Assembly (NCBI RefSeq): GCF_050920415.1
Contig: NZ_CP169309.1
Strand: one strand, 5' to 3'
Source: Escherichia coli
GTDB lineage: Bacteria; Pseudomonadota; Gammaproteobacteria; Enterobacterales; Enterobacteriaceae
DNA: 64,000 bases
Part shown: positions 16,567-60,370 of the stretch, piece after piece
Numbering within the stretch: position 1 is the stretch's first letter
Layout: every line of letters starts with the position of its first letter
Notes under the pieces: generated by a model
Databases searched by the model: none
Seen by the model: the letters and a program-made list of their open reading frames with translations, nothing else
What the model was told of the DNA's origin: nothing
Program-made: the position numbers and the translations under genes

Positions 16567-17847
16567 TTAATTTTTCACCACCTCGTTTTGGGGCATGGTT
16601 GGGGCAAACTCGCTTAGCTGTGTATTTAACAGGGCTACCTGTGCATTATTGTTTTCAGACATCCATTTCCCGTATACCTGAAACACCATTTGCGCATCTG
16701 CATGTCCCATCTGGTTTGCTATGAATGCCGGGTTGGCACCGGCTGTCAACGACCAGCAGGCATAAGTATGTCTCGACTGATATGATTTGCGGTGGCGGAG
16801 GCCAGCGCGCTTTATCGCTGCGTCCCACATCTGCCTTATTGAGTCAACGGTAAAATGGTCACCATAATTTTTTACTCTCGCTGACACTTCAGGTTGAAAA
16901 ACAAAGGTGCATTTTTGTTTTTCTGTTCTGCCGAACTCTCTGAGGTGAACGTCAATAATATGTTCTTTGCTCAGCCTCGTTAGTGTCATCTGACTCCTGA
17001 GAGCGTCGATTGCAGGCTTGATAAGGTGAATTACCCGATTGGTACCAGCCTGTGTTTTCGGTACCGTAAAACGATCTTTTGCTAAATTTCTCCTGATCAT
17101 CATTGTTCCATTTTTCAGATCTATGTCCTCCCACCCAAGCGCACACAGTTCACCAGGGCGAATGCCTGTATAAACAGAAACACACCATAAATTTTTGGCC
17201 TGCTGATTTCTGCAGGCGTCGATAAGACGGATAAATTCCTCCCGTGAAAGAGGATCAGGAATGGTTCTTGATTCCTTTAATGGCGAGATCCCCTTAAACG
17301 GATTATCTGCCAGGTAACCGTTATCAACACCAAACTGGAACACGGCGTTAAGATTTGTCATGTAATTATTTACAGTTACAGCCGATCTCCCTGGTTGTGT
17401 AACAATATAGTTACTTTTGGGGATCTGGTATCCAGTCAGTAGCTCTTTACGAACCTCCAGTAATTTTTCTTTATTAATCGATGAGGCAAGATTTTTTTCA
17501 CCGATTATGCTCAGGATATTTTTGATGACGGCACGGTATGTGTTGAGTGATGCTTTGGCGACTTCAGTTTCTTTCAGTGCCAGAAATTTTTCAGCCAGTT
17601 CTTTTATGGTTAAATCTTGTCGGGCCTCACCAAATTTTTCCAGATTGCGTGAGGAGGGAAACTGTTTTGCATAGTCGAAAACACCAGTTTTTATTGCGTA
17701 ACAAACAGAGGAGCGTAGTTCACCTGCAACGCGCCTGTTTTTTGCTGTGTCAGGAACCCCCAGATTTTCCCTGACTCTTACGCCTTTATAAACAAACCAG
17801 ATACGTAATTTCCCTCCATGGTTTTCCACGCCTGTCGGATATTTCAT
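16567..17847 (-). CDS. int: phage integrase (tyrosine recombinase)
   Basis: ORF 16567..17862; start taken at second ATG (MKYPTG) preceded by purine-rich RBS; C-terminal catalytic domain with conserved R...H-x-x-R...Y; adjacent to att junction. Confidence 0.9.
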   Translation of the reverse strand: MKYPTGVENHGGKLRIWFVYKGVRVRENLGVPDTAKNRRVAGELRSSVCYAIKTGVFDYAKQFPSSRNLEKFGEARQDLTIKELAEKFLALKETEVAKASLNTYRAVIKNILSIIGEKNLASSINKEKLLEVRKELLTGYQIPKSNYIVTQPGRSAVTVNNYMTNLNAVFQFGVDNGYLADNPFKGISPLKESRTIPDPLSREEFIRLIDACRNQQAKNLWCVSVYTGIRPGELCALGWEDIDLKNGTMMIRRNLAKDRFTVPKTQAGTNRVIHLIKPAIDALRSQMTLTRLSKEHIIDVHLREFGRTEKQKCTFVFQPEVSARVKNYGDHFTVDSIRQMWDAAIKRAGLRHRKSYQSRHTYACWSLTAGANPAFIANQMGHADAQMVFQVYGKWMSENNNAQVALLNTQLSEFAPTMPQNEVVKN

Positions 17848-17881
17848 TTCAACTTCTCTCATTAGTTAGTGTGGCTTTTAG

Positions 17882-18133
17882 TCAAGTAAGATGACGTCTT
17901 GGTCTCGCTGATGCCTGGCGCTCAATCCAGCGATCAATTTCTTCCAGGTTGTAAAAGCATGGACTGTTATCCCATGGCATACCGTCATGAGCGACATGCT
18001 TATATTCCCTTCCTTCCATAAACGATTTTTCCCGGGCCTTTTTTAACGTACCTTTTTTTATTCCTTTCAGCGCAATTAACTGCTCTTCGGATACCCATTT
18101 GCCGGGAGAGACAATCATGATTACTTCGCTCAT
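17882..18133 (-). CDS. xis: excisionase-like small DNA-binding protein
   Basis: 83-aa ORF immediately upstream of int in the same orientation. Confidence 0.55.
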   Translation of the reverse strand: MSEVIMIVSPGKWVSEEQLIALKGIKKGTLKKAREKSFMEGREYKHVAHDGMPWDNSPCFYNLEEIDRWIERQASARPRRHLT

Positions 18134-18205
18134 CGATTTCTTTATCTCTTACATCAGACGAGCGCCGGTTGCAGAATACCAGTCACAACCGGCGACAGTT
18201 GAACA

Positions 18206-20677
18206 TTAAGAATCAGCCTGACTCGGGATCAGTTTTTGCCAGATAACTGAAACGTATTTTGCCTGGTAACGGGCGTCATCAAGTGCATTATGGCGCTCAC
18301 CTTCGAATGGAATAGCCGTTCTGGCATCGAAGTCTATGGCTTTCCCCAGCTCAACGATTGTGCGTACATCGCGATCGTTGTAGTAACGCCACGGGCAGGG
18401 GATCCCCTGCCGTTCGTATGAACGGCGCAAAATCGTGTTGTCGAAGTTGGCTCCATTTCCCCAGACCTGAACAAAAAATTCACCGGAGTTTTCGTCGATA
18501 AATTCCCGCAATTGTAACAGTGCATCATCTAACGGGATTTCATCGGTCATAATGGCAGATTGCGCTTCGCGTGATTGCTTAAGCCACCATTTAATGGTGT
18601 CCCGATCAATGACTCCGCCAGCAGTTTCCAGATCGATAGTCTTACTAAATTCCGGTCCCATATCTCCGGTTTGCGGATCGAAAAATATTGCACCTATTGA
18701 GATAATCGGGGCATCAGGATTTTTTCCCATGGTTTCAAGGTCGATCATTAGATGGTCACACGTCCTGCTGGTGGATGTGATAACGTGATGACCGTTCACC
18801 GCAATTAAGGGATCTGCCGTCTCGCCAGTTTCATTATTGCTGGCGTGGTCCTGAGCGCTGCCAGCATTCTCCTTGTGTGGATGTTCAGCGCCTTCCATTT
18901 CCTCCGGATCATTTTCCTGAACTTCAACCTGATTCTCTTCATCGAATGTTTCTTGGTATGTTGCGTCGCCCATCACCGCACCACAATCAGGGCAGTTGCC
19001 GCCGCCGGTCTGACCGCATGCGGTGCAGACTTTTTCCGCTTCCTGTTGCGCTACTGGCTCAGGTTGTTTCGTTTCTGGCTCGTTTTGTAACGCATTTGGG
19101 CTGTTTTGTTCTGCTTTCTGGTCGTTCTGTTCCGTTTCTTGCTGGTTCTGATTCACTGAATCGCGGGTTTCAATCCCCTTCACCCATTTCGGATCATTCG
19201 GGTCGCTAATCCCTGCAACAAATTCACCACGTGATACAGCAAGCAACTTATCGGCGTCAGGCTGGCTGATATTGGCTGCCTGCATAATTTTGTTTACTTC
19301 GTCAGCGGTAACTTTTACCGGCTCTGGTTGTGCGGTCGTGTCAGATGCACCAGTATTTTGTTGTGAACCTGAGTATGTACCGTTTTTACGGGCAAAATAT
19401 TCTTCTTTCGTGATTTCAGTAGCCCCTGCAGTCAGCGCCTTATTCAGACCAGAAAGTTTGTTTGCGCGACCATATTTTTCGCCATCCTTGTCGGTGAAGA
19501 GGAAGTAGAACGGCCCCTCACGCTCTACAGATGGTTCGACTTCCACTTTGCATTCGGTTTTTTCGTTGTCCGGAATTGCCGTTTCCACTGCATCAGTTTC
19601 TGGTACTGGCGACGAGAGAGTATCAGTTGCGCTCTGATTTCTTCCTTCATCTTCAAACACGCCCTTTGTAGTCAGGTATTCAGTAATGTATTTGTTCAGT
19701 GTCACAGGGTCTTTGTGAATGTCGATCGGACGTTCACGGACAAGGCCAAAAATAGTCTGGCGGTCGTAGCGAAGGGCATCAGGCTGTTTGCGCATTGATG
19801 CCGAGATACGCTTCCAGTCTTCGCGGTCGTTGTCGATAACTTCATTTTTTGCCCAGCGATGGATGCTGCCGTCAATGTTTCCGGCATCCACATCACCAGG
19901 CCAGAGAGCGTAGGCCAGTTCGTCATCCAGTGTTTTCCATGTCTGCTTGTATTCGCGATGAGTGGCAGCAATGACCGGGCTGATTTTTCCTGTTGAATTG
20001 TCAGTGTACTGTTGATTGGCTCTGGCGCGGGCGAGATCAACAACAGACGTGTATTTTCCGGTTTCCTTGCGTTCACCTTCGCGACGTTTTTTCCAGATGC
20101 GCATCTCTGCCTGAATTTCGGGCCATTTAGCACCAGGAATACATTTATGCTTAACCCACCCAATGGCGTGCAACTTAAGCTCCGGATACATGGCGTTAAC
20201 TTCTGGCATTTTCATCAACGCTTCAACGATATGTCCGTCGAATGTTGCCATGTCTTCCTGCAACAATTCCTGTGCGCTAATAACCATATCAACGGTGATG
20301 TTTTCACATGTGTCGAACTTAACCAGGACCGCGTTCTGTACTTCAGGGGACAGCTTGTCAAAATTGACGTTCATCGGATCGGATTCTGGTTCGACCGGGA
20401 CAAAGGAAGCGCCTTCCTCATCCCAGCGGTTTTCCAGCATATATTCGGTATCCCAGGAGTCGATGGCAGGGCGGGGCATGCCGGGTTTATCCTCGCAGAC
20501 AAGAAATTTATAAGCGCAGTCCTGAGCAGCCGGATATTGCTCCAGGAATTGCCAGGTAAATTTGGCTCGGGCGCGACGTTCGTCGCCGGCTTCAATGGCA
20601 GTGGCTACAGCGACTGCACCTTCTTCCTTTATTGCCTGTTCGTCCGGAATGGCGGCGCAAATAAAGACTTTACTCAT
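18206..20677 (-). CDS. large prophage early protein with C-terminal DnaQ-like DEDDh 3'-5' exonuclease domain and CxxC zinc-ribbon
   Basis: 823-aa ORF; C-terminal motifs DLETMG, WGNGANFD, HNALDDA; CTACGQTGGGNCPDCG zinc-ribbon-like segment; acidic linker. Confidence 0.75.
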   Translation of the reverse strand: MSKVFICAAIPDEQAIKEEGAVAVATAIEAGDERRARAKFTWQFLEQYPAAQDCAYKFLVCEDKPGMPRPAIDSWDTEYMLENRWDEEGASFVPVEPESDPMNVNFDKLSPEVQNAVLVKFDTCENITVDMVISAQELLQEDMATFDGHIVEALMKMPEVNAMYPELKLHAIGWVKHKCIPGAKWPEIQAEMRIWKKRREGERKETGKYTSVVDLARARANQQYTDNSTGKISPVIAATHREYKQTWKTLDDELAYALWPGDVDAGNIDGSIHRWAKNEVIDNDREDWKRISASMRKQPDALRYDRQTIFGLVRERPIDIHKDPVTLNKYITEYLTTKGVFEDEGRNQSATDTLSSPVPETDAVETAIPDNEKTECKVEVEPSVEREGPFYFLFTDKDGEKYGRANKLSGLNKALTAGATEITKEEYFARKNGTYSGSQQNTGASDTTAQPEPVKVTADEVNKIMQAANISQPDADKLLAVSRGEFVAGISDPNDPKWVKGIETRDSVNQNQQETEQNDQKAEQNSPNALQNEPETKQPEPVAQQEAEKVCTACGQTGGGNCPDCGAVMGDATYQETFDEENQVEVQENDPEEMEGAEHPHKENAGSAQDHASNNETGETADPLIAVNGHHVITSTSRTCDHLMIDLETMGKNPDAPIISIGAIFFDPQTGDMGPEFSKTIDLETAGGVIDRDTIKWWLKQSREAQSAIMTDEIPLDDALLQLREFIDENSGEFFVQVWGNGANFDNTILRRSYERQGIPCPWRYYNDRDVRTIVELGKAIDFDARTAIPFEGERHNALDDARYQAKYVSVIWQKLIPSQADS

Positions 20678-20757: not shown

Positions 20758-20961
20758 TTACGGTGCTGTTTTAAGTCCTGCCGGGATTTCGTTATTGTCC
20801 ATGCGAATAACTTTCTCAACCGGATAACAGTTGCCGGGAATTTTCTGTTCCGCTGCGGCAGCCATGCATTCTTTCATTGAGTCATGTATACCAATAACAA
20901 GATCAACTGGCTCGCCCGTATTAAGAAAAACCGTCAGAACGAGTGCAAATGCTGTATTCAT
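20758..20961 (-). CDS. ydfD: YdfD-like small protein (lysis-associated protein of Qin-type prophages)
   Basis: 67 aa from MNTAFALVLTVFL within ORF 20758..21015; hydrophobic N-terminus; directly downstream of dicB as in Qin. Confidence 0.55.
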   Translation of the reverse strand: MNTAFALVLTVFLNTGEPVDLVIGIHDSMKECMAAAAEQKIPGNCYPVEKVIRMDNNEIPAGLKTAP

Positions 20962-21146
20962 TGCCAGTATCCTTTTTGCATCAGACGTAAACGGGCCAGC
21001 ATTGATACAATGCATATTTGATTTAATAGCTCCCGTTCGTGTTTTCTCTTATTAATGGCATCTTCAGTAAATACAGGGTTACTGATTCTGACACCAATTT
21101 CAAAACAACCTTCAGACGTATTAACGTTTGGTAATAACGTTTCCAT
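20958..21146 (-). CDS. dicB: cell division inhibitor DicB
   Basis: C-terminal 62 aa of ORF 20958..21242 (METLLPNVNTSEGCFEIGVRISNPVFTEDAINKRKHERELLNQICIVSMLARLRLMQKGYWQ) closely match the recalled K-12 DicB sequence. Confidence 0.85.
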   Translation of the reverse strand: METLLPNVNTSEGCFEIGVRISNPVFTEDAINKRKHERELLNQICIVSMLARLRLMQKGYWQ

Positions 21147-21334: not shown

Positions 21335-21387
21335 GGGCGGCAGAGCAGTCACGGAGTAAAACTGATACCGCCAAACGTCACCAGAAA
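21335..21387 (-). ncRNA. dicF: DicF small regulatory RNA (ftsZ-targeting sRNA)
   Basis: Minus-strand sequence TTTCTGGTGACGTTTGGCGGTATCAGTTTTACTCCGTGACTGCTCTGCCGCCC matches the 53-nt DicF followed by a T-run; about 190 bp upstream of dicB as in Qin. Confidence 0.8.
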
Positions 21388-22721: not shown

Positions 22722-23366
22722 CTATAGGCTGAACTGCACACCTTTTGCTACAGCAACAATTTTACATTCAGGTGTCAGTAAGGACGATTGATAGCGAGGA
22801 TTGAGGGGGCTTAAATACACGAGTTTTCCGTCGATGACTAATTTTTTTATAGTCATAGATGGTTCGTTTGTAAGCGGATCTGGGACTATTACAGCGACGA
22901 TACTACCATTTTTATATTTTTCTCTAGGCCTCATGATCACTGTGGCACCAACCGGAATGCTTGGCGACCCTGATGGGTTGTGCATAGTGTCATCAGGCAT
23001 TGAAACGGCAAAATCCCCCTCCTTGACGTCAAAGAATGTGGTGATTCTGTCGGCATTTCCCATAGTTTTCTCTCCTTCTAAAATTAGGAAAGAAATTGCT
23101 TCCCCCCATGAAAGATAGGGGATTTGGGTGCCTGAATTGTTCTGCACAAGGGTAGGTTCAGTAGACGATACTCCATATAGGAGATAGGACTCAGTAGTTC
23201 CTAGTGCTTGGGCTAATTTACTAAGAGCTTTGCTACCGGGTTCGTTTAGGTCTTTCTCCCAGTACCCTATAGTTACCCCTGTTACGCCAGAAAGCTTGCC
23301 CAGTTCGACTTGGGTCAGTCCCTTGTCTTTTCTGAGTCTCTTAAGCCTAATGCCAAGGCTTTCCAT
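22722..23366 (-). CDS. cI: CI-like prophage repressor (HTH_XRE plus S24 LexA-like autopeptidase)
   Basis: 214 aa from third ATG (RBS GGGAG); N-terminal HTH (LTQVELGKLSGVTGVTIGYWE); C-terminal S24 fold with Ser in GDFAVSM and Lys in TIKKL; divergent to cro-like gene. Confidence 0.9.
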   Translation of the reverse strand: MESLGIRLKRLRKDKGLTQVELGKLSGVTGVTIGYWEKDLNEPGSKALSKLAQALGTTESYLLYGVSSTEPTLVQNNSGTQIPYLSWGEAISFLILEGEKTMGNADRITTFFDVKEGDFAVSMPDDTMHNPSGSPSIPVGATVIMRPREKYKNGSIVAVIVPDPLTNEPSMTIKKLVIDGKLVYLSPLNPRYQSSLLTPECKIVAVAKGVQFSL

Positions 23367-23372
23367 CATCAT

Positions 23373-24114: not shown

Positions 24115-24964
24115 AAGCACGGTGTTCGGGGTTTTTTATGAGCAGCAAGCTTCATGGTCTTGTCTGGGAAGGGTGCGCCTTCACCGGCATGATCTTATCC
24201 AGGGTGGCAGTAATGGCTCGCCTTGCAGACTACAGCAATGACGAAGGTGTGTCATGGCCTGCAGTGGAGACCATTCGTCGTCAGATTGGGGCAAAGAGTG
24301 AATCAACGGTTAAAGCGGCGATAGCGGAACTGGAAAAGAACGGCTGGCTGACGAAGGAGGAGCGTAAGGTCGGTGGGCGTAATGAAAGCAATATCTACCG
24401 CCTTAATGTGGAAAAACTCGAAGCAGCAGCTGAGGCGGCGCGTGAGGCATATAAACCGAAAAGAAAAATTAGCCCGGCAAAAAATGACCCGTTAACAGTT
24501 GACCAGTCAAATATTGCCCCCTCAACGGTTGACCCGTCAAATTTTGATGGATCAACCGTTGGTAAAAAACAGCCGGTTAGGGGGGCGATGGTTGGCCCCG
24601 ATCCGTCAGTATTAAAACCTGATCCGTCAGATAAAAGATCTTTTCGTCCGGAAGCTTCGCAACCGGACCCGCAGACGGCTGAACAGGATTTTTTAACCCG
24701 ACATCCTGATGCGGTTGTGTTTAGTGCAAAAAAACGTCAGTGGGGAACTCAGGAGGATTTGGCATGCGCACAGTGGATCTGGGGGCGAATCGTGAGTCTT
24801 TACGAACAGGCCGCCAGCGATGATGGCGAGATCACCCGACCGAAAGAACCCAACTGGACAGCATGGGCCAATGACGTGCGCATAATGCGGATGCTGGATG
24901 GCAGAACTCACAGACAAATCTGTGAACCGCCCCGGGTTTCCTGGAGAGTGTTTTATCTGTGAAC

Positions 24965-25831
24965 TCAGGCTGCCAGATCATTGTTTCCGATGGAAGCATA
25001 ATAAGCTTTTTCTGCTTCTGCCGGAGGAGTATGGCCCAGCCTTCCCAGCAATCGTCGATTGTTATACCAGTCCACCCACGTGAGTGTGGCCAGTTCCACT
25101 TCTGCACGGTTTTTCCAGCTCTTACGGTGTATTACCTCCGCTTTGTAAAGACCATTGATGCTCTCAGCCATCGCGTTGTCATACGAGTCGCCTGTACTCC
25201 CTGTTGATGCCAGCAGTTTTGCTTCTTTTAGTCGCTCCGTATAGGCCAGTGACACATACTGAGAGCCTTTATCGCTGTGATGGATGGTGCCAGACGGACG
25301 ACGGGCCCACAACGCCTGCTCCAGCGCATCCAGCACGAATGTCGTTTCCATAGACGATGAGACCCGCCACCCCACGATGTATCCGGCAAACACATCAATG
25401 ATGAACGCCACATAGACGAAGCCCTGCCATGTGCTGACGTAAGTAAAATCAGCCACCCACAGCTGGTCAGGACGTTCTGCCACGAACTGACGGTTTACGC
25501 GGTCACCTGTGGCAACGGTTTTCCGGCTGACGGTAGTGCGGACCTTTTTACCCCGGAGAACACCGGCAAGTCCCATAACCGCCATGAGGCGCGCCACTGT
25601 ACATCTGGCCACCCTGATTCCTTCCCGTAACAACTGACGCCAGACTTTACGCACACCGTACACCTGATGATTTTCATCGTATACGCGCTGTATCTCTCTC
25701 TTCAGCCAGTCATCGCGCTGCGCACGGGCACTGCGTTTATCAGGATGATGCCGCTGCTGCTGACAATGGTAATACGTTGACGGGGCAATATGCAGTTCAC
25801 TGCATACCGGTCCGACCCCCGTACTGCTCAC
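24965..25831 (-). CDS. IS3-family transposase OrfB (DDE integrase domain)
   Basis: 288-aa ORF with DDE catalytic region; expressed as OrfAB by -1 frameshift. Confidence 0.85.
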   Translation of the reverse strand: MSSTGVGPVCSELHIAPSTYYHCQQQRHHPDKRSARAQRDDWLKREIQRVYDENHQVYGVRKVWRQLLREGIRVARCTVARLMAVMGLAGVLRGKKVRTTVSRKTVATGDRVNRQFVAERPDQLWVADFTYVSTWQGFVYVAFIIDVFAGYIVGWRVSSSMETTFVLDALEQALWARRPSGTIHHSDKGSQYVSLAYTERLKEAKLLASTGSTGDSYDNAMAESINGLYKAEVIHRKSWKNRAEVELATLTWVDWYNNRRLLGRLGHTPPAEAEKAYYASIGNNDLAA

Positions 25832-25852
25832 GCAGCTTATCCAGCAGTGGCA

Positions 25853-26179
25853 TTATTTTTTCCAGAGGCGGTCGAACTCCGCCTTCGCAAAATAAGCGGA
25901 AGCCTGGCGAAGGATATCGTTACTGCGGCGCAGTTCACGATTTTCACGTTCCAGCTCTTTCAGACGCTGACGTTCAGCGGTGGTGAGCCCACCATCACCG
26001 CTCCCGGTATCCCTCTCATGCTGGCGAACCCAGACACGCAGAGTCTCTGGCGTACAGCCAATCTTTGGAGCAATGGAACAAATTGCCGCCCATTGTGAGT
26101 CATATTCGCCCTGACTTTCCAGAACCATACGAACTGCGCGTTGACGGACTTCGGGGGAAAAACGAGTATTTTTAGTCAT
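25853..26179 (-). CDS. IS3-family transposase OrfA (HTH and leucine zipper)
   Basis: 108 aa, [19 protein letters not shown]...; recognised IS629-type OrfA. Confidence 0.85.
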
Positions 26180-45632: not shown

Positions 45633-49310
<3,678 letters not shown>

Positions 49311-49330
<20 letters not shown>

Positions 49331-50630
49331 TCTCCCGCATATTGCCAGCATGGCCTTTAATGAGCCGCTGATGCTTGAACCCGCCTATGCGCGGGTTTTC
49401 TTTTGTGCGCTAGCAGGCCAGCTTGGGATCAGCCGCCTGACAGATGCGGTGTCCGGTGACAGCCTGACTGCCCCGGAGACACCCGCGACGCTGGCGTTAT
49501 CTGGTGATGATGACGGACCACGACAGGCCCGCAGTTATCAGGTCATGAACGGCATCGCCGTGCTGCCGGTTTCCGGCACGCTGGTCAGCCGGACGCGGGC
49601 GCTGCAGCCGTATTCGGGGATGACCGGTTACAACGGCATTATCGCCCGTCTGCAACAGGCTGCCAGCGATCCGATGGTGGACGGCATTCTGCTCGATATG
49701 GACACGCCCGGCGGGATGGTGGCGGGGGCATTTGACTGCGCTGACATCATCGCCCGTGTGCGTGACATAAAACCGGTATGGGCGCTTGCCAACGACATGA
49801 ACTGCAGTGCAGGTCAGTTGCTTGCCAGTGCCGCTTCCCGGCGTCTGGTCACGCAGACCGCCCGGACAGGCTCCATCGGCGTCATGATGGCTCACAGCAA
49901 TTACGGTGCAGCGCTGGAGAAACAGGGCGTGGAAATCACGCTGATTTACAGCGGCAGCCATAAGGTGGATGGCAACCCCTACAGCCATCTTCCGGATGAC
50001 GTCCGGGAAACACTGCAGTCCCGGATGGATGCAACCCGCCAGATGTTTGCGCAGAAAGTGTCGGCATATACCGGCCTGTCCGTGCAGGCTGTGCTGGATA
50101 CCGAGGCTGCAGTGTACAGCGGTCAGGAGGCCATTGATGCCGGACTGGCTGATGAACTTGTTAACAGTACCGATGCGATCACCGTCATGCGTGATGCACT
50201 GGATACACGTAAATCCCGTCTCTCAGGAGGGCGAATGACCAAAGAGACTCAATCAACAACTGTTTCAGCCACTGCTTCGCAGGCTGACGTTACTGGCGTG
50301 GTGCAAGCGACGGAGGGCGAGAACGCCAGCGCTGCGCAGCCGGACGTGAACGCGCAGATCACCGCAGCGGTTGCGGCAGAAAACAGTCGCATTATGGGGA
50401 TCCTCAACTGTGAGGAGGCTCACGGACGCGAAGAACAGGCATGCGTGCTGGCCGAAACCCCCGGTATGACCGTGGAAACGGCCCGCCGTATTCTGGCCGC
50501 AGCACCACAGAGTGCACAGGCGCGCAGTGACACTGCGCTGGATCGTCTGATGCAGGGGGCACCGGCGCCGCTGGCTGCAGGTAACCCGGCATCTGATGCC
50601 GTTAACGATTTGCTGAACACACCAGTGTAA
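49311..50630 (+). CDS. C: head maturation protease / scaffold C
   Basis: 439 aa from GTG (VTAELRNLPHIASMAF...) with GAGGAGG RBS; S49 ClpP-like protease fold. Confidence 0.9.
50025..50630 (+). CDS. nu3: scaffolding protein Nu3 (in-frame C-terminal portion of C)
   Basis: In-frame internal ATG (MDATRQMF...) as in lambda, where nu3 shares the 3' end of C. Confidence 0.55.
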   Translation: MDATRQMFAQKVSAYTGLSVQAVLDTEAAVYSGQEAIDAGLADELVNSTDAITVMRDALDTRKSRLSGGRMTKETQSTTVSATASQADVTGVVQATEGENASAAQPDVNAQITAAVAAENSRIMGILNCEEAHGREEQACVLAETPGMTVETARRILAAAPQSAQARSDTALDRLMQGAPAPLAAGNPASDAVNDLLNTPV

Positions 50631-50639
50631 GGGATGTTT

Positions 50640-50972
50640 ATGACGAGCAAAGAAACCTTTACCCATTACCAGCCGCTGGGCAACAGTGACCCGGCTCATA
50701 CCGCAACCGCGCCCGGCGTATTGAGTGCGAAAGCGCCTGCAATGACCCCGCTGATGCTGGACACCTCCACCCGTAAGCTGGTTGCGTGGGATGGCACCAC
50801 CGACGGTGCTGCCGTTGGCATTCTTGCAGTTGCTGCTGACCAGACCAGCACCACACTGACGTTCTACAAGTCCGGCACGTTCCGTTATGAGGATGTGCTC
50901 TGGCCGGAGGCTGCCAGCGACGAGACGAAAAAACGGACCGCGTTTGCCGGAACGGCAATCAGCATCGTTTAA
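50640..50972 (+). CDS. D: head decoration protein D
   Basis: 110 aa, [26 protein letters not shown]... Confidence 0.9.
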
Positions 50973-51027
50973 CTTTACCCTTCATCACTAAAGGCCGCCT
51001 GTGCGGCTTTTTTTACGGGATTTTTTT

Positions 51028-52053
51028 ATGTCGATGTACACAACCGCCCAACTGCTCGCGGCAAATGAGCAGAAATTTAAGTTTGATCCGCTGTTTCTGC
51101 GTCTCTTTTTCCGTGAGAGCTATCCCTTCACCACGGAGAAAGTCTATCTCTCACAAATTCCGGGACTGGTAAACATGGCGCTGTACGTTTCGCCGATTGT
51201 TTCCGGTGAGGTTATCCGTTCCCGTGGCGGCTCCACCTCTGAATTTACGCCGGGATATGTCAAGCCGAAGCATGAAGTGAATCCGCAGATGACCCTGCGT
51301 CGCCTGCCGGATGAAGATCCGCAGAATCTGGCGGACCCGGCTTACCGCCGCCGTCGCATCATCATGCAGAACATGCGTGACGAAGAGCTGGCCATTGCTC
51401 AGGTCGAAGAGATGCAGGCAGTTTCTGCCGTGCTTAAGGGCAAATACACCATGACCGGTGAAGCCTTCGATCCGGTTGAGGTGGATATGGGCCGCAGTGA
51501 GGAGAATAACATCACGCAGTCCGGCGGCACGGAGTGGAGCAAGCGTGACAAGTCCACGTATGACCCGACCGACGATATCGAAGCCTACGCGCTGAACGCC
51601 AGCGGCGTGGTGAATATCATCGTGTTTGACCCGAAAGGCTGGGCGCTGTTCCGTTCCTTCAAAGCCGTCAAGGAGAAGCTGGATACCCGTCGCGGCTCTC
51701 ATTCCGAGCTGGAGACAGCGGTGAAAGACCTGGGTAAAGCGGTGTCCTATAAGGGGATGTATGGCGATGTGGCCATCGTCGTGTATTCCGGACAGTACGT
51801 GGAAAACGGCGTCAAAAAGAACTTCCTGCCGGACAACACGATGGTGCTGGGGAACACTCAGGCACGCGGTCTGCGCACCTATGGCTGCATTCAGGATGCG
51901 GACGCACAGCGCGAAGGCATTAACGCCTCTGCCCGTTACCCGAAAAACTGGGTGACCACCGGCGATCCGGCGCGTGAGTTCACCATGATTCAGTCAGCAC
52001 CGCTGATGCTGCTGGCTGACCCTGATGAGTTCGTGTCCGTACAACTGGCGTAA
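51028..52053 (+). CDS. E: major capsid protein E
   Basis: 341 aa from MSMYTTAQLLAANEQKFKFDP... Confidence 0.95.
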   Translation: MSMYTTAQLLAANEQKFKFDPLFLRLFFRESYPFTTEKVYLSQIPGLVNMALYVSPIVSGEVIRSRGGSTSEFTPGYVKPKHEVNPQMTLRRLPDEDPQNLADPAYRRRRIIMQNMRDEELAIAQVEEMQAVSAVLKGKYTMTGEAFDPVEVDMGRSEENNITQSGGTEWSKRDKSTYDPTDDIEAYALNASGVVNIIVFDPKGWALFRSFKAVKEKLDTRRGSHSELETAVKDLGKAVSYKGMYGDVAIVVYSGQYVENGVKKNFLPDNTMVLGNTQARGLRTYGCIQDADAQREGINASARYPKNWVTTGDPAREFTMIQSAPLMLLADPDEFVSVQLA

Positions 52054-52094
52054 TCATGGCCCTTCGGGGCCATTGTTTCTCTGTGGAGGAGTCC

Positions 52095-52493
52095 ATGACG
52101 AAAGATGAACTGATTGCCCGTCTCCGCTCGCTGGGTGAACAACTGAACCGTGATGTCAGCCTGACGGGGACGAAAGAAGAACTGGCGCTCCGTGTGGCAG
52201 AGCTGGAAGAGGAGCTTGATGACACGGATGAAACTTCCGGTCAGGACACCCCTCTCAGCCGGGAAAATGTGCTGACCGGACATGAAAATGAGGTGGGATC
52301 AGCGCAGCCGGATACCGTGATTCTGGATACGTCTGAACTGGTCACGGTCGTGGCACTGGTGACGCTGCATACTGATGCACTTCACGCCACGCGGGATGAG
52401 GCTGTGGCATTTGTGCTGCCGGGAACGGCGTTCCGTGTCTCTGCCGGTGTGGCAGCTGAAATGACAGAGCGCGGCCTGGCCAGAATGCAATAA
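52095..52493 (+). CDS. FI: DNA packaging protein FI
   Basis: 132 aa from MTKDELIARLRSLGEQ... Confidence 0.9.
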   Translation: MTKDELIARLRSLGEQLNRDVSLTGTKEELALRVAELEEELDDTDETSGQDTPLSRENVLTGHENEVGSAQPDTVILDTSELVTVVALVTLHTDALHATRDEAVAFVLPGTAFRVSAGVAAEMTERGLARMQ

Positions 52494-52504
52494 CGGGAGG
52501 CGCT

Positions 52505-52879
52505 GTGGCTGATTTCGATAACCTGTTCGATGCTGCCATTGCCTGCGCCGATGAAACGATACGCGGGTACATGGGAACGTCAGCCACCATGACATCCGGT
52601 GAGCAGTCCGGTGCTGTGATACGTGGTGTTTTTGATGACCCTGAAAATATCAGCTATGCCGGACAGGGCGTGCGCGTTGAAGGCTCCAGCCCGTCCCTGT
52701 TTGTCCGGACTGATGATGTGCGGCAGCTGCGGCGCGGCGACACGCTGACCATCGGTGAGGAAAACTTCTGGATAGACCGGATTTCGCCGGATGATGGCGG
52801 AAGCTGTCATCTCTGGCTTGGGCGGGGCGTACCGCCTGCCGTTAACCGTCGCCGCTGGAAGGGGGATGTATGGCCATAA
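52505..52879 (+). CDS. FII: head-tail connector FII
   Basis: GTG start, MADFDNLFDAAIA...; C-terminus slightly longer than lambda FII. Confidence 0.9.
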   Translation: MADFDNLFDAAIACADETIRGYMGTSATMTSGEQSGAVIRGVFDDPENISYAGQGVRVEGSSPSLFVRTDDVRQLRRGDTLTIGEENFWIDRISPDDGGSCHLWLGRGVPPAVNRRRWKGDVWP

Positions 52880-53448
52880 AAGGTCTTGAGCAGGCCGTTG
52901 AAAACCTCAGCCGTATCAGCAGAACGGCGGTGCCCGGTGCCGCCGCAATGGCCATTAACCGCGTTGCTTCATCCGCGATATCGCAGTCGGTGTCACAGGT
53001 TGCCCGTGAGACAAAGGTACGCCGGAAACTGGTAAAGGAAAGGGCCAGGCTGAAAAGGGCCACGGTCAAAAATCCGCAGGCCAGAATCAAGGTTAACCGG
53101 GGGGATTTGCCCGTAATCAGGCTGGGTAATGCGCGGGTTGTCCTTTCGCGCCGCAGGCGTCGTAAAAAGGGGCAGCGTTCAGCCCTGAAAGGTGGCGGCA
53201 GCGTGCTTGTGGTGGGTAACCGTCGTATTCCCGGCGCGTTTATTCAGCAACTGAAAAATGGCCGGTGGCATGTTATGCAGCGTGTGGCCGGGAAAAACCG
53301 TTACCCCATTGATGTGGTGAAAATCCCGATGGCGGTGCCGCTGACCACGGCGTTTAAACAAAATATTGAGCGGATACGGCGTGAACGTCTTCCGAAAGAG
53401 CTGGGCTATGCGCTGCAGCATCAACTGAGGATGGTAATAAAGCGATGA
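52870..53448 (+). CDS. Z: tail completion protein Z
   Basis: 192 aa. Confidence 0.9.
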   Translation: MAIKGLEQAVENLSRISRTAVPGAAAMAINRVASSAISQSVSQVARETKVRRKLVKERARLKRATVKNPQARIKVNRGDLPVIRLGNARVVLSRRRRRKKGQRSALKGGGSVLVVGNRRIPGAFIQQLKNGRWHVMQRVAGKNRYPIDVVKIPMAVPLTTAFKQNIERIRRERLPKELGYALQHQLRMVIKR

Positions 53449-53840
53449 AACATACTGAACTCCGTGCAGCCGTACTGGATGCACTGGAGAAGCATGACAC
53501 CGGGGCGACGTTTTTTGATGGTCGCCCCGCTGTTTTTGATGAGGCGGATTTTCCGGCAGTTGCCGTTTATCTCACCGGCGCTGAATACACGGGCGAAGAG
53601 CTGGACAGCGATACCTGGCAGGCGGAGCTGCATATCGAAGTTTTCCTGCCTGCTCAGGTGCCGGATTCAGAGCTGGATTCGTGGATGGAGTCCCGGATTT
53701 ATCCGGTGATGAGCGATATCCCGGCACTGTCAGATTTGCTCACCAGTATGGTGGCCAGTGGCTATGACTACCGGCGCGACGATGATGCGGGCCTGTGGAG
53801 TTCTGCCGATCTGACTTATGTCATTACCTATGAAATGTGA
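53445..53840 (+). CDS. U: tail terminator protein U
   Basis: 131 aa. Confidence 0.9.
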
Positions 53841-53847
53841 GGACGAT

Positions 53848-54588
53848 ATGCCTGTACCAAATCCAGCAATACCGGTGAAAGGTGCCGGGACCACCCTGTG
53901 GGTTTATAACGGGAGCGGCGACCCTTATGCGAACCCGCTTTCAGACGTTGACTGGTCGCGTCTGGCTAAAGTTAAAGACCTGACGCCCGGCGAACTGACC
54001 GCTGAGTCCTATGACGACAGTTATCTCGATGATGAAGATGCGGACTGGACCGCGACCGGGCAGGGGCAGAAATCCGCCGGAGATACCAGCTTCACGCTGG
54101 CGTGGATGCCCGGAGAGCAGGGGCAGCAGGCGCTGCTGGCGTGGTTTAATGAAGGTGATACCCGTGCCTATAAAATCCGCTTCCCGAACGGCACGGTCGA
54201 TGTGTTCCGTGGCTGGGTCAGCAGTATCGGTAAGGCGGTGACGGCGAAGGAAGTGATCACCCGTACGGTGAAGGTCACCAATGTGGGCCGTCCGTCAATG
54301 GCAGAAGATCGCAGCACGGTAACAGCGGCAACCGGTATGACCGTGACGCCTGCCAGCTCCTCGGTGGTGAAAGGGCAGAGCACCACGCTGACCGTGGCAT
54401 TCCAGCCGGAGGGCGCAACTGACAAGAGCTTCCGTGCGGTGTCAGCGGATAAAACAAAAGCCACCGTGTCGGTCAGTGGTATGACCATCACCGTGAAAGG
54501 CGTTGCTGCAGGTAAGGTCAACATTCCGGTTTTATCCGGTAATGGTGAACTTGCTGCGGTTGCAGAAATCACTGTCACCGACAGTTAA
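53848..54588 (+). CDS. V: major tail tube protein V
   Basis: 246 aa from [20 protein letters not shown]...; C-terminal Ig-like domain. Confidence 0.95.
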
Positions 54589-54603
54589 TCCGGAGAGTCA
54601 GCG

Positions 54604-55028
54604 ATGTTCCTGAAAACCGAATCATTTGAACATAACGGTGTGACCGTCACGCTTTCTGAACTGTCAGCCCTGCAGCGCATTGAGCATCTCGCCCTGATGA
54701 AACGGCAGGCAGAACAGGCGGAGTCAGACAGCAACCGGAAGTTTACTGTGGAAGACGCGCCATCAGAACCGGCGCGTTTCTGGTGGCGATGTCCCTGTGG
54801 CATAACCATCCGCAGAAGACAAAGCTGCCGTCCATGAATGAAGCCGTTAAACAGATTGAGCAGGAAGTGCTTACCACCTGGCCCACGGAGGCAATTTCTC
54901 ATGCTGAAAACGTGGTGTACCGGCTGTCTGGTATGTATGAGTTTGTGGTGAATAATGCCCCTGAACAGACAGAGGACGCCGGGCCCGCAGAGCCTGTTTC
55001 TGCGGGAAAGTGTTCGACGGTGAGCTGA
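54604..55028 (+). CDS. G: tail assembly chaperone G, disrupted by an apparent 2-bp insertion frameshift
   Basis: ORF 54604..54837 matches lambda G to ...FTVEDA then diverges; ORF 54783..55028 in the +2 frame matches the rest (AMSLWHNHPQ...KCSTVS); removing 2 bp near 54756-54760 restores EDAIRTGAFLVAMSLW. Confidence 0.8.
55004..55010 (+). promoter_or_regulatory. programmed -1 ribosomal frameshift slippery site GGGAAAG for the G-T fusion
   Basis: Heptamer GGGAAAG at the end of G, overlapping the start of the T frame, as in lambda. Confidence 0.6.
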
Positions 55029-55444
55029 GTTTTGCCCTGAAACTGGCGCGTGAGATGGGGCGACCTGACTGGCGTGCCATGCTTGCCGGGATGTCATCCA
55101 CGGAGTATGCCGACTGGCACCGCTTTTACAGTACCCATTATTTTCATGATGTTCTGCTGGATATGCACTTTTCCGGGCTGACGTACACCGTGCTCAGCCT
55201 GTTTTTCAGCGATCCGGATATGCATCCGCTGGATTTCAGTCTGCTGAACCGGCGCGAGGCTGACGAAGAGCCTGAAGATGATGTGCTGATGCAGAAAGCG
55301 GCAGGGCTTGCCGGAGGTGTCCGCTTTGGCCCGGACGGGAATGAAGTTATCCCCGCTTCCCCGGATGTGGCGGACATGACGGAGGATGACGTAATGCTGA
55401 TGACAGTATCAGAAGGGATCGCAGGAGGAGTCCGGTATGGCTGA
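55010..55444 (+). CDS. T: tail assembly protein T (made as G-T fusion by -1 frameshift)
   Basis: 144-codon ORF, lambda T-like. Confidence 0.8.
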   Translation: MFDGELSFALKLAREMGRPDWRAMLAGMSSTEYADWHRFYSTHYFHDVLLDMHFSGLTYTVLSLFFSDPDMHPLDFSLLNRREADEEPEDDVLMQKAAGLAGGVRFGPDGNEVIPASPDVADMTEDDVMLMTVSEGIAGGVRYG

Positions 55445-57998: not shown

Positions 57999-58324
57999 AA
58001 ACCTTCCGCTGGAAAGTGAAACCCGGTATGGATGTGGCTTCGGCCCCTTCCGTCAGGAAGGTGCGCTTTGGTGATGGCTATTCCCAGCGTGCGCCTGCCG
58101 GGCTGAATGCCGACCTGAAAACGTACAGTGTGACGCTTTCCGTGACCCGGGAGGAGGCCCGGCATCTGGAGTCGTTTCTGGCAGAGCACGGGGGCTGGAA
58201 GGCCTTTCTGTGGACGCCGCCTTATGGTTACAGGCAGATAAAGGTGACCTGCGCAAAATGGTCGTCGCAGGTCAGTATGTTGCGTGTTGAGTTCAGCGCA
58301 GAGTTTAAACAGGTGGTGAACTGA
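57995..58324 (+). CDS. M: tail tip protein M
   Basis: 109 aa. Confidence 0.9.
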   Translation: MKTFRWKVKPGMDVASAPSVRKVRFGDGYSQRAPAGLNADLKTYSVTLSVTREEARHLESFLAEHGGWKAFLWTPPYGYRQIKVTCAKWSSQVSMLRVEFSAEFKQVVN

Positions 58325-59022
58325 TGCAGGATATCCGGCAGGAAACACTGAATGAATGCACCCGTGCGGAGCAGTCGGCCAGCGTGGTGCTCTGGGAAAT
58401 CGATCTGACAGAGGTCGGTGGAGAACGTTATTTTTTCTGTAATGAGCAGAACGAAAAAGGTGAGCCGGTCACCTGGCAGGGGCGACAGTATCAGCCGTAT
58501 CCCATTCAGGGGACGGGATTTGAACTGAACGGCAAGGGCAGTGCTGCCCGTCCGACACTGACGGTCTCTAACCTGTACGGCATGGTCACCGGGATGGCGG
58601 AAGATCTGCAGAGTCTGGTTGGCGGAACGGTGGTCCGGCGTAAGGTTTACGCCCGTTTTCTGGATGCGGTGAACTTCGTCAACGGAAACAGAGACGCCGA
58701 TCCGGAGCAGGAGGTGATCAGCCGCTGGCGCATCGAGCAGTGCAGCGAACTGAGCGCGGTGAGTGCCTCCTTTGTACTGTCCACGCCGACGGAAACGGAT
58801 GGCGCTGTTTTTCCGGGACGTATCATGCTGGCCAACACCTGCACCTGGACCTATCGCGGTGACGAGTGCGGTTATAGCGGTCCGGCTGTCGCGGATGAAT
58901 ATGACCAGCCAACGTCCGATATCACGAAGGATAAATGCAGCAAATGCCTGAGCGGTTGTAAGTTCCGCAATAACGTCGGCAACTTTGGCGGCTTCCTTTC
59001 CATTAACAAACTTTCGCAGTAA
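58324..59022 (+). CDS. L: tail tip protein L
   Basis: 232 aa; C-terminal Cys cluster. Confidence 0.95.
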   Translation: MQDIRQETLNECTRAEQSASVVLWEIDLTEVGGERYFFCNEQNEKGEPVTWQGRQYQPYPIQGTGFELNGKGSAARPTLTVSNLYGMVTGMAEDLQSLVGGTVVRRKVYARFLDAVNFVNGNRDADPEQEVISRWRIEQCSELSAVSASFVLSTPTETDGAVFPGRIMLANTCTWTYRGDECGYSGPAVADEYDQPTSDITKDKCSKCLSGCKFRNNVGNFGGFLSINKLSQ

Positions 59023-59027
59023 ATCCC

Positions 59028-59771
59028 ATGACACAGACAGAATCAGCGATTCTGGCGCACGCCCGGCGATGTGCGCCAGCGGAGTCGTGCGGCTTCGTGG
59101 TAAGCACGCCGGAGGGGGAAAGATATTTCCCCTGCGTGAATATCTCCGGTGAGCCGGAGGCGTATTTCCGGATGTCGCCGGAAGACTGGCTGCAGGCAGA
59201 AATGCAGGGTGAGATTGTGGCGCTGGTCCACAGCCACCCCGGTGGTCTGCCCTGGCTGAGTGAGGCCGACCGGCGGCTGCAGGTGCAGAGTGATTTGCCG
59301 TGGTGGCTGGTCTGCCTGGGCGTGATTCACAAGTTCCGCTGTGTGCCGTATCTCACCGGGCGGCGCTTTGAGCACGGAGTGACGGACTGTTACACGCTGT
59401 TCCGGGACGCTTACCATCTGGCGGGAATTGAGATGCCGGATTTTCACCGCGAGGATGACTGGTGGCGTCACGGTCAGAATCTCTATCTTGACAATATGGA
59501 GGCAACGGGTTTTTACCGTGTCGCACTGACAGAGGCGCAGCCGGGCGATGTGCTGCTGTGCAGCTTTGGTTCATCGGTGCCGAATCATGCTGCCATTTAC
59601 TGCGGCGACGGCGAGCTGCTGCACCATATTCCTGAACAACTGAGCAAACGAGAGAGGTATACCGACAAATGGCAGCGACGCACACACTCCCTCTGGCGTC
59701 ACCGGGCATGGCACGCATCTGCCTTTACGGGGATTTGCAACGATTTGGCCGCCGCATCGACCTTCGTGTGA
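59028..59771 (+). CDS. K: tail tip assembly protein K (MPN/JAMM plus NlpC/P60 domains)
   Basis: ORF 59028..59771; JAMM motif HSHPGGLPWLSEAD; lambda K is conventionally annotated from the internal ATG (here 59172, 199 aa). Confidence 0.85.
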   Translation: MTQTESAILAHARRCAPAESCGFVVSTPEGERYFPCVNISGEPEAYFRMSPEDWLQAEMQGEIVALVHSHPGGLPWLSEADRRLQVQSDLPWWLVCLGVIHKFRCVPYLTGRRFEHGVTDCYTLFRDAYHLAGIEMPDFHREDDWWRHGQNLYLDNMEATGFYRVALTEAQPGDVLLCSFGSSVPNHAAIYCGDGELLHHIPEQLSKRERYTDKWQRRTHSLWRHRAWHASAFTGICNDLAAASTFV

Positions 59772-60310: not shown

Positions 60311-60370
60311 TGCAAAATGTTTTATGTGAAACCGCCTGCGGGCGGTTTTATCGTTTATGGAGCGTGAGGA

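What the first reader, a model, noticed from the sequence alone, without database searches (positions are those of the whole stretch)
18206..20677. Large early protein combining a long acidic N-terminal region, a CxxC zinc-ribbon and a C-terminal DEDDh exonuclease
The 823-aa protein occupies the exo/bet/gam position, but its only recognisable catalytic domain is a DnaQ-like 3'-5' exonuclease (DLETMG, WGNGANFD, HNALDDA), not the lambda Exo or RecE nuclease fold. The function of the N-terminal 600 residues is unknown.
Basis: partly seen in the sequence, partly recalled or inferred. Interest (0 to 1): 0.35.

Follow-up and report, generated by a model that had tools for sequence, protein, structure and literature searches.

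The report
RecE-like scaffold carrying a 3'-5' exonuclease
This very common E. coli prophage gene is the intact form of the K-12 pseudogene ydfE: it shares a scaffold with the recombination enzyme RecE but carries a DexA-type 3'-5' exonuclease instead of RecE's nuclease and has no annealing partner, so it is a real, untested variant and not a standard recombination system.

Summary
Window 18206-20677 (-) encodes an 823-aa protein identical to RefSeq WP_000048570.1 'exonuclease'. It has CxxC...CxxC at aa 551-565 and a Pfam Rv2179c-like DEDDh domain at aa 642-813 (E 2.4e-67). All five catalytic residues are present.

It is not an orphan. Aa 1-256 are 93% identical to the K-12 Qin pseudogene ydfE. 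Aa 475-624 share a DNA block (78% nt) with Rac recE. The break falls just before the nuclease.

Among 51 representatives (clusters at 50% identity), the same scaffold carries a Rad52-like annealase (17), RecE's PD-(D/E)XK nuclease (13), the DEDDh domain (7) or only a short tail (6).

PD-(D/E)XK versions are followed by a RecT-family gene in 4 of 5 loci. DEDDh versions are followed directly by xis/int in 8 of 8.

The closest solved relative is T4 DexA, a DNA 3'-5' exonuclease (profile E 3e-17). Folded modules are under purifying selection. The head (aa 1-350) models confidently (pLDDT 91) but matches no solved fold.

Best reading: the scaffold delivers 3'-end trimming of DNA, without an annealase, during early lytic growth. 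The biological role is inferred. Defence and RNA-directed roles are not excluded. The gene is catalogued and present in at least 65% of complete E. coli genomes, but I found no functional study. Interest is moderate.

The parts
18206..20677 (-). Whole CDS, 823 aa; the intact orthologue of the K-12 Qin pseudogene ydfE
   Evidence: ORF list. Identical to RefSeq WP_000048570.1. Full-length match to PHROG 2082. 93% identical to K-12 YdfE over aa 1-256.
20012..20677 (-). YdfE-type head, aa 1-222: an alpha/beta subdomain (about aa 1-100) plus a helical subdomain (about aa 105-222)
19643..19945 (-). N2 helical domain, aa 245-345; I take it to correspond to Pfam YdfE_C; also present in divergent form in Rac RecE (aa ~278-360)
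   Evidence: pLDDT 93-98. BLASTP to RecE aa 278-360. Module mapping. dN/dS 0.18.
19373..19525 (-). M1 module, aa 385-435 (GPFYF..GRANK..EEYxARKNG)
   Evidence: Conserved among homologues. dN/dS 0.08. Fold not modelled.
19172..19270 (-). M2 motif, aa 470-502 (RGEFVxGISDPNDPKW), found in family members with every type of C-terminal domain
   Evidence: Alignment A2. Module counts.
18804..19253 (-). DNA block shared with Rac recE (78% nt), covering aa ~475-624 and RecE aa ~455-590; it ends at the mosaic junction just before the nuclease
   Evidence: Local blastn of the window against K-12 Rac. BLASTP.
18980..19027 (-). CxxC-x7-CxxC zinc ribbon, aa 551-566
   Evidence: Motif positions. Weak Pfam DZR hit. 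Conserved with RecE. 0 nonsynonymous and 3 synonymous changes against HannyBb.
18758..18952 (-). Acidic, probably disordered linker, aa 576-640 (net charge -14)
   Evidence: Composition. dN/dS 0.95.
18239..18754 (-). DEDDh 3'-5' exonuclease domain of the Rv2179c/DexA family, aa 642-813; catalytic residues D646, E648, D746, H796, D801
   Evidence: Pfam PF16473 E 2.4e-67. T4 DexA (8KEL) phmmer E 1.5e-6 and profile E 3e-17. The five residues are invariant in alignment A4.
17882..18133 (-). Excisionase (DUF1233), immediately downstream; no annealase lies between it and the exonuclease gene
   Evidence: Pfam. RefSeq annotation of the identical locus.
16567..17862 (-). Integrase; the prophage sits at the Qin attachment site next to rspB
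   Evidence: Pfam. K-12 Qin/rspB layout.
20758..20961 (-). ydfD-like (DUF1482) gene directly upstream in the same operon
   Evidence: Pfam. RefSeq annotation. K-12 ydfD is annotated 'lysis protein'.
20958..21146 (-). dicB
   Evidence: Pfam DicB E 4.7e-38. RefSeq annotation.
22722..23372 (-). cI/LexA-family repressor; it bounds the leftward early operon that ends with the exonuclease, xis and int
   Evidence: Pfam HTH_3 and Peptidase_S24.

Best explanation
The gene encodes a mosaic member of the RecE/YdfE family of early proteins from Rac/Qin-type lambdoid prophages.

Shown:
- A folded YdfE head (aa 1-222) and an N2 helical domain (aa 245-345).
- Two short conserved modules, M1 and M2, then a zinc ribbon and an acidic linker. 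These are shared with Rac RecE.
- At about aa 625-640 the scaffold joins a DexA/Rv2179c-type DEDDh exonuclease with an intact active site. This domain takes the place of RecE's PD-(D/E)XK 5'-3' nuclease.
- The adjacent recT is missing.

Inferred:
- The C-terminal domain removes nucleotides from free 3'-OH ends using two metal ions. DNA is the most likely substrate, because T4 DexA is the closest solved relative.
- The scaffold delivers this activity to the same target to which sibling proteins deliver RecE's nuclease or a Rad52-like annealase. That target would be linear DNA ends or recombination intermediates formed early in lytic growth.
- Without a cognate annealase, and with the opposite polarity, it is not a RecET-type two-component recombinase. 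It more likely trims 3' ends or 3' flaps, or degrades linear DNA, as DexA does.
For: Enzyme class:
- Pfam PF16473 E 2.4e-67.
- D646, E648, D746, H796 and D801 are invariant across fused and stand-alone homologues.
- T4 DexA is the top solved relative.

Mosaic origin:
- BLASTP and blastn show that only aa ~262-625 resemble RecE. The shared DNA block ends at the nuclease boundary.
- The NCBIfam exoVIII model matches only aa 238-626.
- K-12 YdfE corresponds to aa 1-256.

Interchangeable C-terminal domains on one scaffold:
- 51 representatives (50%-identity clusters) split into Rad52-like 17, PD-(D/E)XK 13, DEDDh 7, short tail 6 and unassigned 8. Both head types combine with every C-terminal type.

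Gene context:
- DEDDh versions are followed directly by xis/int in 8 of 8 loci.
- PD-(D/E)XK versions are followed by a RecT-family gene in 4 of 5 loci.
- The window has no RecT, Rad52-like, Gam or RecE-nuclease homologue. An annotated prophage at the same site, with the identical exonuclease gene, has none either.

Selection and use in phages:
- dN/dS is 0.19, 0.18, 0.08 and 0 in the folded modules and 0.8-0.95 in the linkers.
- The gene is intact in viable phages.
Against: - No biochemical or genetic data exist for this protein or for the scaffold. I found no paper on it.
- Substrate (DNA or RNA) and polarity are inferred from homology only.
- The Pfam family is named after an exoribonuclease.
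- A 3'-5' exonuclease produces 5' overhangs, which are not known substrates for annealase or RecA pathways. A direct role in recombination is therefore not obvious.
- The scaffold has no informative structural relative. 'Delivery to DNA ends' is an argument from its partner domains, not an observation.
- The context tallies are small (8 and 5 loci).
Confidence: 0.5

Rival explanations
1. It is a prophage-encoded exclusion or defence nuclease. The DEDDh domain degrades the incoming nucleic acid of competing phages: modified DNA as proposed for EcD/HREX, or RNA-phage 3' ends as proposed for TONDOs. The N-terminal part acts as an auxiliary targeting domain.
For: - Kang et al. 2025 (PMC12153337) report that EcD, an E. 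coli DexA homologue, protects against T4 and degrades 5hmC DNA.
- A 2026 preprint (PMC13344964) reports prophage- and plasmid-borne DEDDh exonucleases with unrelated auxiliary domains that block MS2 and Qbeta.
- The gene is retained in most E. coli genomes, including cryptic prophages: 3532 of 5426 complete genomes hold a match covering at least 80% of the gene.
Against: - The gene lies at the end of the repressor-controlled leftward early operon, not in a lysogen-expressed moron position.
- EcD starts MIDTET and is a separate stand-alone protein.
- The TONDO screen covered only proteins under 500 aa.
- The same scaffold carries recombination enzymes in sibling proteins.
- DexA's proposed 5hmC-reading W152 aligns with Tyr766 here. 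The tetramer residue D90, which is Ala in EcD, aligns with Asp718.
Confidence: 0.2
2. It is an exoribonuclease like M. tuberculosis Rv2179c. It would act on RNA 3' ends, for example phage or host transcripts or small RNAs of the dicF operon, and not on DNA.
For: The Pfam family is 'Rv2179c-like 3'-5' exoribonuclease'. NCBI names many copies '3'-5' exoribonuclease'. DEDDh enzymes often accept both nucleic acids.
Against: - A profile of the domain retrieves T4 DexA, a DNA exonuclease, at E 3e-17. It does not retrieve Rv2179c at E <= 1.
- The domain is fused to a scaffold otherwise linked to DNA nuclease and annealase domains.
- Stand-alone homologues sit among phage DNA replication genes, for example 9NA gp71 between a helicase and a primase.
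Confidence: 0.12
3. It is a functional RecE equivalent that drives homologous recombination together with a host or unlinked annealase.
For: It occupies the recE position and shares the RecE middle region. Several database records label it 'exodeoxyribonuclease VIII'.
Against: - The nuclease fold and the expected polarity are wrong for generating 3' tails.
- No SSAP is adjacent in 8 of 8 loci or anywhere in the window.
- The RecE equivalog model falls far below its cutoff.
Confidence: 0.1
4. It is a decaying prophage relic with no current function.
For: K-12 carries only a truncated pseudogene, ydfE, cut by IS2. Frameshifted copies exist (P0233).
Against: Folded modules are under purifying selection. 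The gene is intact and full-length in viable phages and in thousands of genomes. The catalytic residues are invariant.
Confidence: 0.03

Closest known systems
RecE (exonuclease VIII) of the E. coli K-12 Rac prophage
   Same: Same position in the leftward early operon. Shared N2 domain, M2 motif, zinc ribbon and acidic linker: aa ~262-625 match RecE 278-591, and aa 475-624 share a DNA block at 78% nt. RecE's N-terminal region is likewise of unknown function (PMC11611040).
   Different: RecE has an Exonuc_VIII head (PF06630) and a PD-(D/E)XK (DUF3799) 5'-3' nuclease, and it is followed by recT. This protein has a YdfE head, a DEDDh 3'-5' nuclease and no recT.
YdfE (b1577), a pseudogene of the K-12 Qin prophage
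   Same: Same attachment site next to rspB and the same dicF-dicB-ydfD-ydfE-int gene order. 93% identical over aa 1-256. The Pfam YdfE_N and YdfE_C families are named after it.
   Different: K-12 YdfE is a fragment cut by IS2E and lacks everything after aa 256, including the exonuclease.
T4 DexA (exonuclease A; PDB 8KEL and 8KEN)
   Same: It is the closest solved structure to the C-terminal domain (phmmer E 1.5e-6, profile E 3e-17). The DEDDh residues align: DexA D7 and D119 with D646 and D746. [quoted passage not shown]
   Different: DexA is a stand-alone 227-aa protein of a lytic phage, only about 28% identical, with extra loops. Its proposed 5hmC-reading W152 aligns with Tyr766 here.
Stand-alone Rv2179c/DexA-like exonucleases of temperate and lytic phages (for example Escherichia phage PhiR55_1, 190 aa; Salmonella phage 9NA gp71)
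   Same: Same domain, at 59% and about 37% identity. The PhiR55_1 copy also sits at the end of the leftward early operon. 1280 phage records hold a homologue.
   Different: They have no RecE/YdfE scaffold.
Rv2179c of Mycobacterium tuberculosis (founder of Pfam PF16473)
   Same: Same Pfam family and DEDDh chemistry.
   Different: It is a cellular exoribonuclease (my own knowledge of the family description). It was not retrieved by sequence from the PDB at E <= 1. It is a single-domain protein.
EcD/HREX (Kang et al. 2025) and TONDO exonucleases (2026 preprint)
   Same: They are DEDDh exonucleases on mobile elements in enterobacteria. TONDOs also carry unrelated auxiliary domains.
   Different: EcD is a separate stand-alone protein that starts MIDTET. 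TONDOs are ISG20-like and under 500 aa. Neither study tested this protein.

Membership tests
DEDDh exonuclease, Rv2179c/DexA subfamily (Pfam PF16473) | Profile match above the curated gathering score | tested here: met
   226.5 bits against a cutoff of 27, E 2.4e-67, covering aa 642-813 and profile positions 2-177 of 177.
DEDDh exonuclease, Rv2179c/DexA subfamily (Pfam PF16473) | Exo I D-x-E, Exo II D and Exo III H-x4-D catalytic residues | tested here: met
   D646, E648, D746, H796 and D801 are invariant in the six-sequence alignment A4. D646 and D746 align with DexA D7 and D119.
DEDDh exonuclease, Rv2179c/DexA subfamily (Pfam PF16473) | Metal-dependent 3'-5' exonuclease activity, and the substrate (DNA or RNA) | not testable with these tools
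   Only homology is available. The nearest solved relative, DexA, is a DNA exonuclease (PMC12153337).
RecE / exodeoxyribonuclease VIII (NCBIfam NF007259 equivalog) | Full-length match above the curated cutoff | tested here: not met
   285.7 bits against a cutoff of 1269. Only aa 238-626 align, to model positions 261-603.
RecE / exodeoxyribonuclease VIII (NCBIfam NF007259 equivalog) | C-terminal PD-(D/E)XK nuclease (Pfam DUF3799) | tested here: not met
   DUF3799 is found in K-12 RecE (E 4.1e-28) but not here. Local phmmer with RecE aa 600-866 gives no hit in this protein's near-identical (93%) cluster representative P0004.
RecE / exodeoxyribonuclease VIII (NCBIfam NF007259 equivalog) | Exonuc_VIII head (Pfam PF06630) | tested here: not met
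   No PF06630 hit at E <= 1. RecE itself scores E 6.1e-98.
RecE / exodeoxyribonuclease VIII (NCBIfam NF007259 equivalog) | Shared middle region: N2 domain, M2 motif, zinc ribbon and acidic linker | tested here: met
   BLASTP E 1e-63 over aa 262-625. A blastn block at 78% nt.
Two-component phage recombinase (exonuclease plus annealase, RecET / Red type) | An adjacent single-strand annealing protein gene | tested here: not met
   xis follows directly. No RecT or Rad52-like homologue in the window. 0 of 8 DEDDh-type loci have one.
Two-component phage recombinase (exonuclease plus annealase, RecET / Red type) | A 5'-3' dsDNA exonuclease of the PD-(D/E)XK fold | tested here: not met
   The only nuclease domain is DEDDh.
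YdfE family (Pfam PF27430 YdfE_N and PF27432 YdfE_C) | Homology to K-12 YdfE and to the two Pfam domains | tested here: met
   93% identity to YdfE over 256 aa. Cluster representatives 91-95% identical to the query carry PF27430 and PF27432 in precomputed annotation. These two models are not in the local Pfam copy, so they were not scored directly.
HREX / EcD 5hmC-DNA defence exonuclease (Kang et al. 2025) | Residues proposed to read 5hmC (DexA W152 and D169) are kept, and the tetramer residue D90 is lost | tested here: inconclusive
   W152 aligns with Y766 and D90 with D718. D169 lies outside the alignment.
HREX / EcD 5hmC-DNA defence exonuclease (Kang et al. 2025) | Protection against T4 and selective cleavage of 5hmC DNA | not testable with these tools
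   This needs an experiment.
TONDO (ISG20-like defence exonucleases; preprint PMC13344964) | Membership of the ISG20-like clade and defence against RNA phages | not tested
   No TONDO sequences were at hand. Their screen was limited to proteins under 500 aa.

The most novel reading that the evidence does not exclude
The RecE/YdfE scaffold may be an autonomous adaptor that has not been recognised as such. It would bring interchangeable effectors (a 5'-3' nuclease, a 3'-5' nuclease, a Rad52-like annealase, or none) to one common host or phage target. On this reading the DEDDh version is not a recombinase at all. It would be a counter-defence or exclusion nuclease that removes 3'-ended DNA or RNA species during early lytic growth.
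Probability: 0.2. Interest if true: 0.6.

Novelty: new variant of a known kind. Interest (0 to 1): 0.4.

Why it matters
RecE's N-terminal 600 residues have had no assigned function for decades, yet full-length RecE is the form that improves linear-linear recombineering (PMC11611040).

Nature attaches the same scaffold to four different C-terminal ends: RecE's nuclease, a DexA-like 3'-5' nuclease, a Rad52-like annealase and a short tail. This makes the scaffold's role testable by domain swaps and partner pull-downs.

The DEDDh form is among the commonest prophage genes in E. coli, and no functional study turned up in the held library. Its frequent database label 'exodeoxyribonuclease VIII' is wrong for the nuclease it carries. 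The 'exonuclease' label on the Rad52-like fusions also looks wrong.

Tried and rejected
Fold searches
- Foldseek against BFVD gave nothing at E <= 0.001.
- The AlphaFold-database library (afdb50) was not available.

Literature
- Searches for Rv2179c with phage, PF16473, ydfE with Qin, and dicB/xis/exonuclease found no study of this protein.
- One search was wasted because 'RecE' matched 'receptor'.

Is this protein EcD?
- I tested whether the defence exonuclease EcD of Kang et al. is this protein. Its cloning primer shows that it starts MIDTET, so it is a separate stand-alone homologue.

Alignments and models
- The MAFFT alignment of aa 351-823 (A2) misplaced the M1 module. I did not use it for structure prediction, so M1, M2 and the zinc ribbon were not modelled.
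- The first broad protein search returned only near-identical E. coli copies.

Unresolved neighbours
- The 271-aa gene after P0258 could not be assigned to RecT: it matches PHROG 3657 'unknown', and hhalign was negative.

Other
- The promoter and terminator scans showed nothing above chance.
Full report
**Observation.** Window 18206-20677 on the minus strand is an 823-aa ORF with an ATG start and a GAGG upstream.
- It is 100% identical at the DNA level to a RefSeq CDS, WP_000048570.1 'exonuclease', in E. coli NZ_CP169399.
The cysteine pairs are at aa 551-554 and 562-565.
- The first 640 residues have a net charge of -47.
- Pfam places an Rv2179c-like DEDDh exonuclease domain at aa 642-813, with E 2.4e-67.

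**Setting.** The window holds a lambdoid prophage at the Qin site.
- The order is rspA, rspB, int (16567-17862), xis (17882-18133), this gene, a ydfD-like DUF1482 gene, dicB, the DicF sRNA (21335-21386, Rfam 76.7 bits), two small ORFs and a cI/LexA-type repressor (22722-23372). The prophage genes from int to the repressor are on the minus strand; rspA and rspB are on the plus strand.
- K-12 has the same order at the same site. There, ydfE is a pseudogene cut by IS2E.
- K-12 YdfE is 93% identical to aa 1-256 of this protein. The window therefore carries the intact form of ydfE.
- The gene is very common. 4799 of 5426 complete E. coli genomes have a megablast match, and 3532 have one covering at least 80% of the gene, with a median of two places per genome.
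- It is intact in viable phages, including mEp460, Tritos, HannyBb, Evi and PhiR42_1.

**Anatomy.** Comparison with K-12 Rac RecE shows homology only over aa ~262-625, which match RecE 278-591.
- At the DNA level a single block is shared: window 18804-19253, aa ~475-624, at 78% nt. It ends just before the two different nuclease domains.
- The NCBIfam exoVIII equivalog matches only aa 238-626 and stays far below its cutoff, at 285.7 against 1269 bits.
- Pfam finds RecE's Exonuc_VIII head and DUF3799 PD-(D/E)XK nuclease in RecE, but not in this protein.
- An AlphaFold2 model of aa 1-350, built from a 41-sequence alignment, is confident (mean pLDDT 91.2). It shows an alpha/beta subdomain (about aa 1-100), a helical subdomain (105-222), a disordered stretch (222-235) and a second helical domain (245-345).
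- Newer Pfam families, YdfE_N and YdfE_C, are recorded on close relatives.

**The exonuclease domain.** D646, E648, D746, H796 and D801 are invariant in an alignment of fused and stand-alone homologues.
- The only solved relative found by sequence is T4 DexA (8KEL, 8KEN), at E 1.5e-6 with the single sequence and 3e-17 with a profile. Rv2179c itself is not retrieved at E <= 1.
- The domain is widespread in phages as a stand-alone protein of about 170-230 aa, in 1280 records. One is a 190-aa copy, 59% identical, at the end of the leftward operon of phage PhiR55_1.

**The family is combinatorial.** A search of 1.84 billion cluster representatives with aa 1-639 found only 254 relatives at E <= 0.001, so the scaffold family is narrow.
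- Mapping modules onto the 51 representatives of at least 480 aa gave four C-terminal types: 17 of a third type, 13 PD-(D/E)XK, 7 DEDDh and 6 with only a short helical tail. Eight were unassigned.
- Both head types (YdfE-type and RecE-type) combine with each C-terminal type.
- PHROGs calls the third type 'exonuclease'. It carries the motif KKSLTDAxKKALSxLGFSADV.
- The M2 motif (RGEFVxGISDPNDPKW) occurs in members with each type of C-terminal domain.

**Context test.** The type of C-terminal domain predicts the next gene.

| C-terminal type | Next gene | Tally |
|---|---|---|
| DEDDh | xis/int directly, no annealase | 8 of 8 loci |
| PD-(D/E)XK | RecT-family gene | 4 of 5 loci |
| PD-(D/E)XK (the fifth locus) | 271-aa protein of unknown family | 1 of 5 loci |
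| Rad52-like | Sipho_Gp157 gene (PHROGs: 'Mu Gam-like end protection') | 2 of 2 loci |

- The window contains no RecT, Rad52-like, Gam or RecE-nuclease homologue.
- An annotated prophage at the same site that carries the identical exonuclease gene (its other genes were not compared with the window) has only RusA.

**Selection.** Against the HannyBb orthologue, dN/dS is 0.28 overall.
- By module it is 0.19 for the head, 0.18 for N2 and 0.08 for M1.
- The zinc ribbon and the DEDDh domain each show 0 nonsynonymous and 3 synonymous changes.
- The linkers are at 0.8-0.95.
- This is a single pair, but it agrees with folded modules joined by drifting linkers.

**Interpretation.**
- *Shown:* the protein is a mosaic RecE/YdfE-family early protein. 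A catalytically intact DexA-type DEDDh domain replaces RecE's nuclease, and no annealase accompanies it.
- *Inferred:* it trims 3' ends, most likely of DNA. The scaffold directs it to the same target as its sibling proteins, which the partner domains suggest is linear DNA ends or recombination intermediates.
- Its polarity and its lack of an annealase argue against a RecET-type recombinase.
- Rivals that remain open are a defence or exclusion nuclease, with precedents in EcD/HREX and TONDOs, and an RNA-directed role.
- EcD is a different, stand-alone protein.
- I found no functional study of this protein. The 2023 review still lists RecE's N-terminal domain as of unknown function.

**Verdict.** The sequence is already catalogued (RefSeq, PHROG 2082, Pfam YdfE_N/YdfE_C). 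I found no description of the architecture as a RecE variant with a swapped nuclease and no partner, nor of the wider set of interchangeable C-terminal domains, in the held library. I rate it a new variant of a known kind, of moderate interest.

Noticed in passing
[not shown]
   Followed up: yes
loci L010 6334-6837 and L020 5223-5717: The Rad52-like fusions are each followed by a Sipho_Gp157 gene (PHROGs: 'Mu Gam-like end protection'). One is also preceded by a lambda Gam-like gene. This may be a conserved annealase plus end-protection module.
   Followed up: partly
protein P0205 (703 aa): This representative runs from the RecE scaffold, through the first CxxC of the zinc ribbon, straight into RecT sequence (…GYRGMIDLARRSGQ…). 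It appears to be an in-frame recE-recT fusion that has lost the nuclease.
   Followed up: no
proteins P0125 and P0134 (C-terminal ~45 aa): Some family members end in a short shared helical tail (…LTIAA[LI][HQ]GLCANPA…) with no nuclease or annealase domain. This suggests the scaffold can act on its own.
   Followed up: no
window 21335-21386 (-): A DicF antisense sRNA lies in the same leftward operon, upstream of dicB (Rfam RF00039, 76.7 bits against a gathering score of 48).
   Followed up: yes
window 24138-25898: The HTH_36 replication-initiator-like ORF (24138-24962, +) stops where a minus-strand transposase ORF (24965-25831) begins. An ALIL frameshift pseudoknot typical of IS3-family elements lies at 25781-25898 (114 bits). 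The prophage replication gene appears to be interrupted by an IS.
   Followed up: partly
window 18134-18205: Between the exonuclease stop and the xis start there is an inverted repeat (GCCGGTTG…CAACCGGC). It was not picked up by the terminator scan, and its function is unknown.
   Followed up: no
window 46000-64000: GC content rises to 0.54-0.59, against 0.42-0.53 in the early region of the prophage. This probably reflects the mosaic late (head/tail) region.
   Followed up: no
locus L019 2342-4158 (protein P0233): A DEDDh-type family gene is split into two overlapping ORFs: an Exonuc_VIII head (250 aa) and an Rv2179c-like part (385 aa). It is a frameshifted copy in a complete genome (LR133996.1).
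   Followed up: no
locus L017 5565-6380: A 271-aa gene in the recT position, after a PD-(D/E)XK-type RecE, belongs to PHROG 3657 'unknown function' and shows no detectable similarity to RecT. It may be an unrecognised annealase family.
   Followed up: partly
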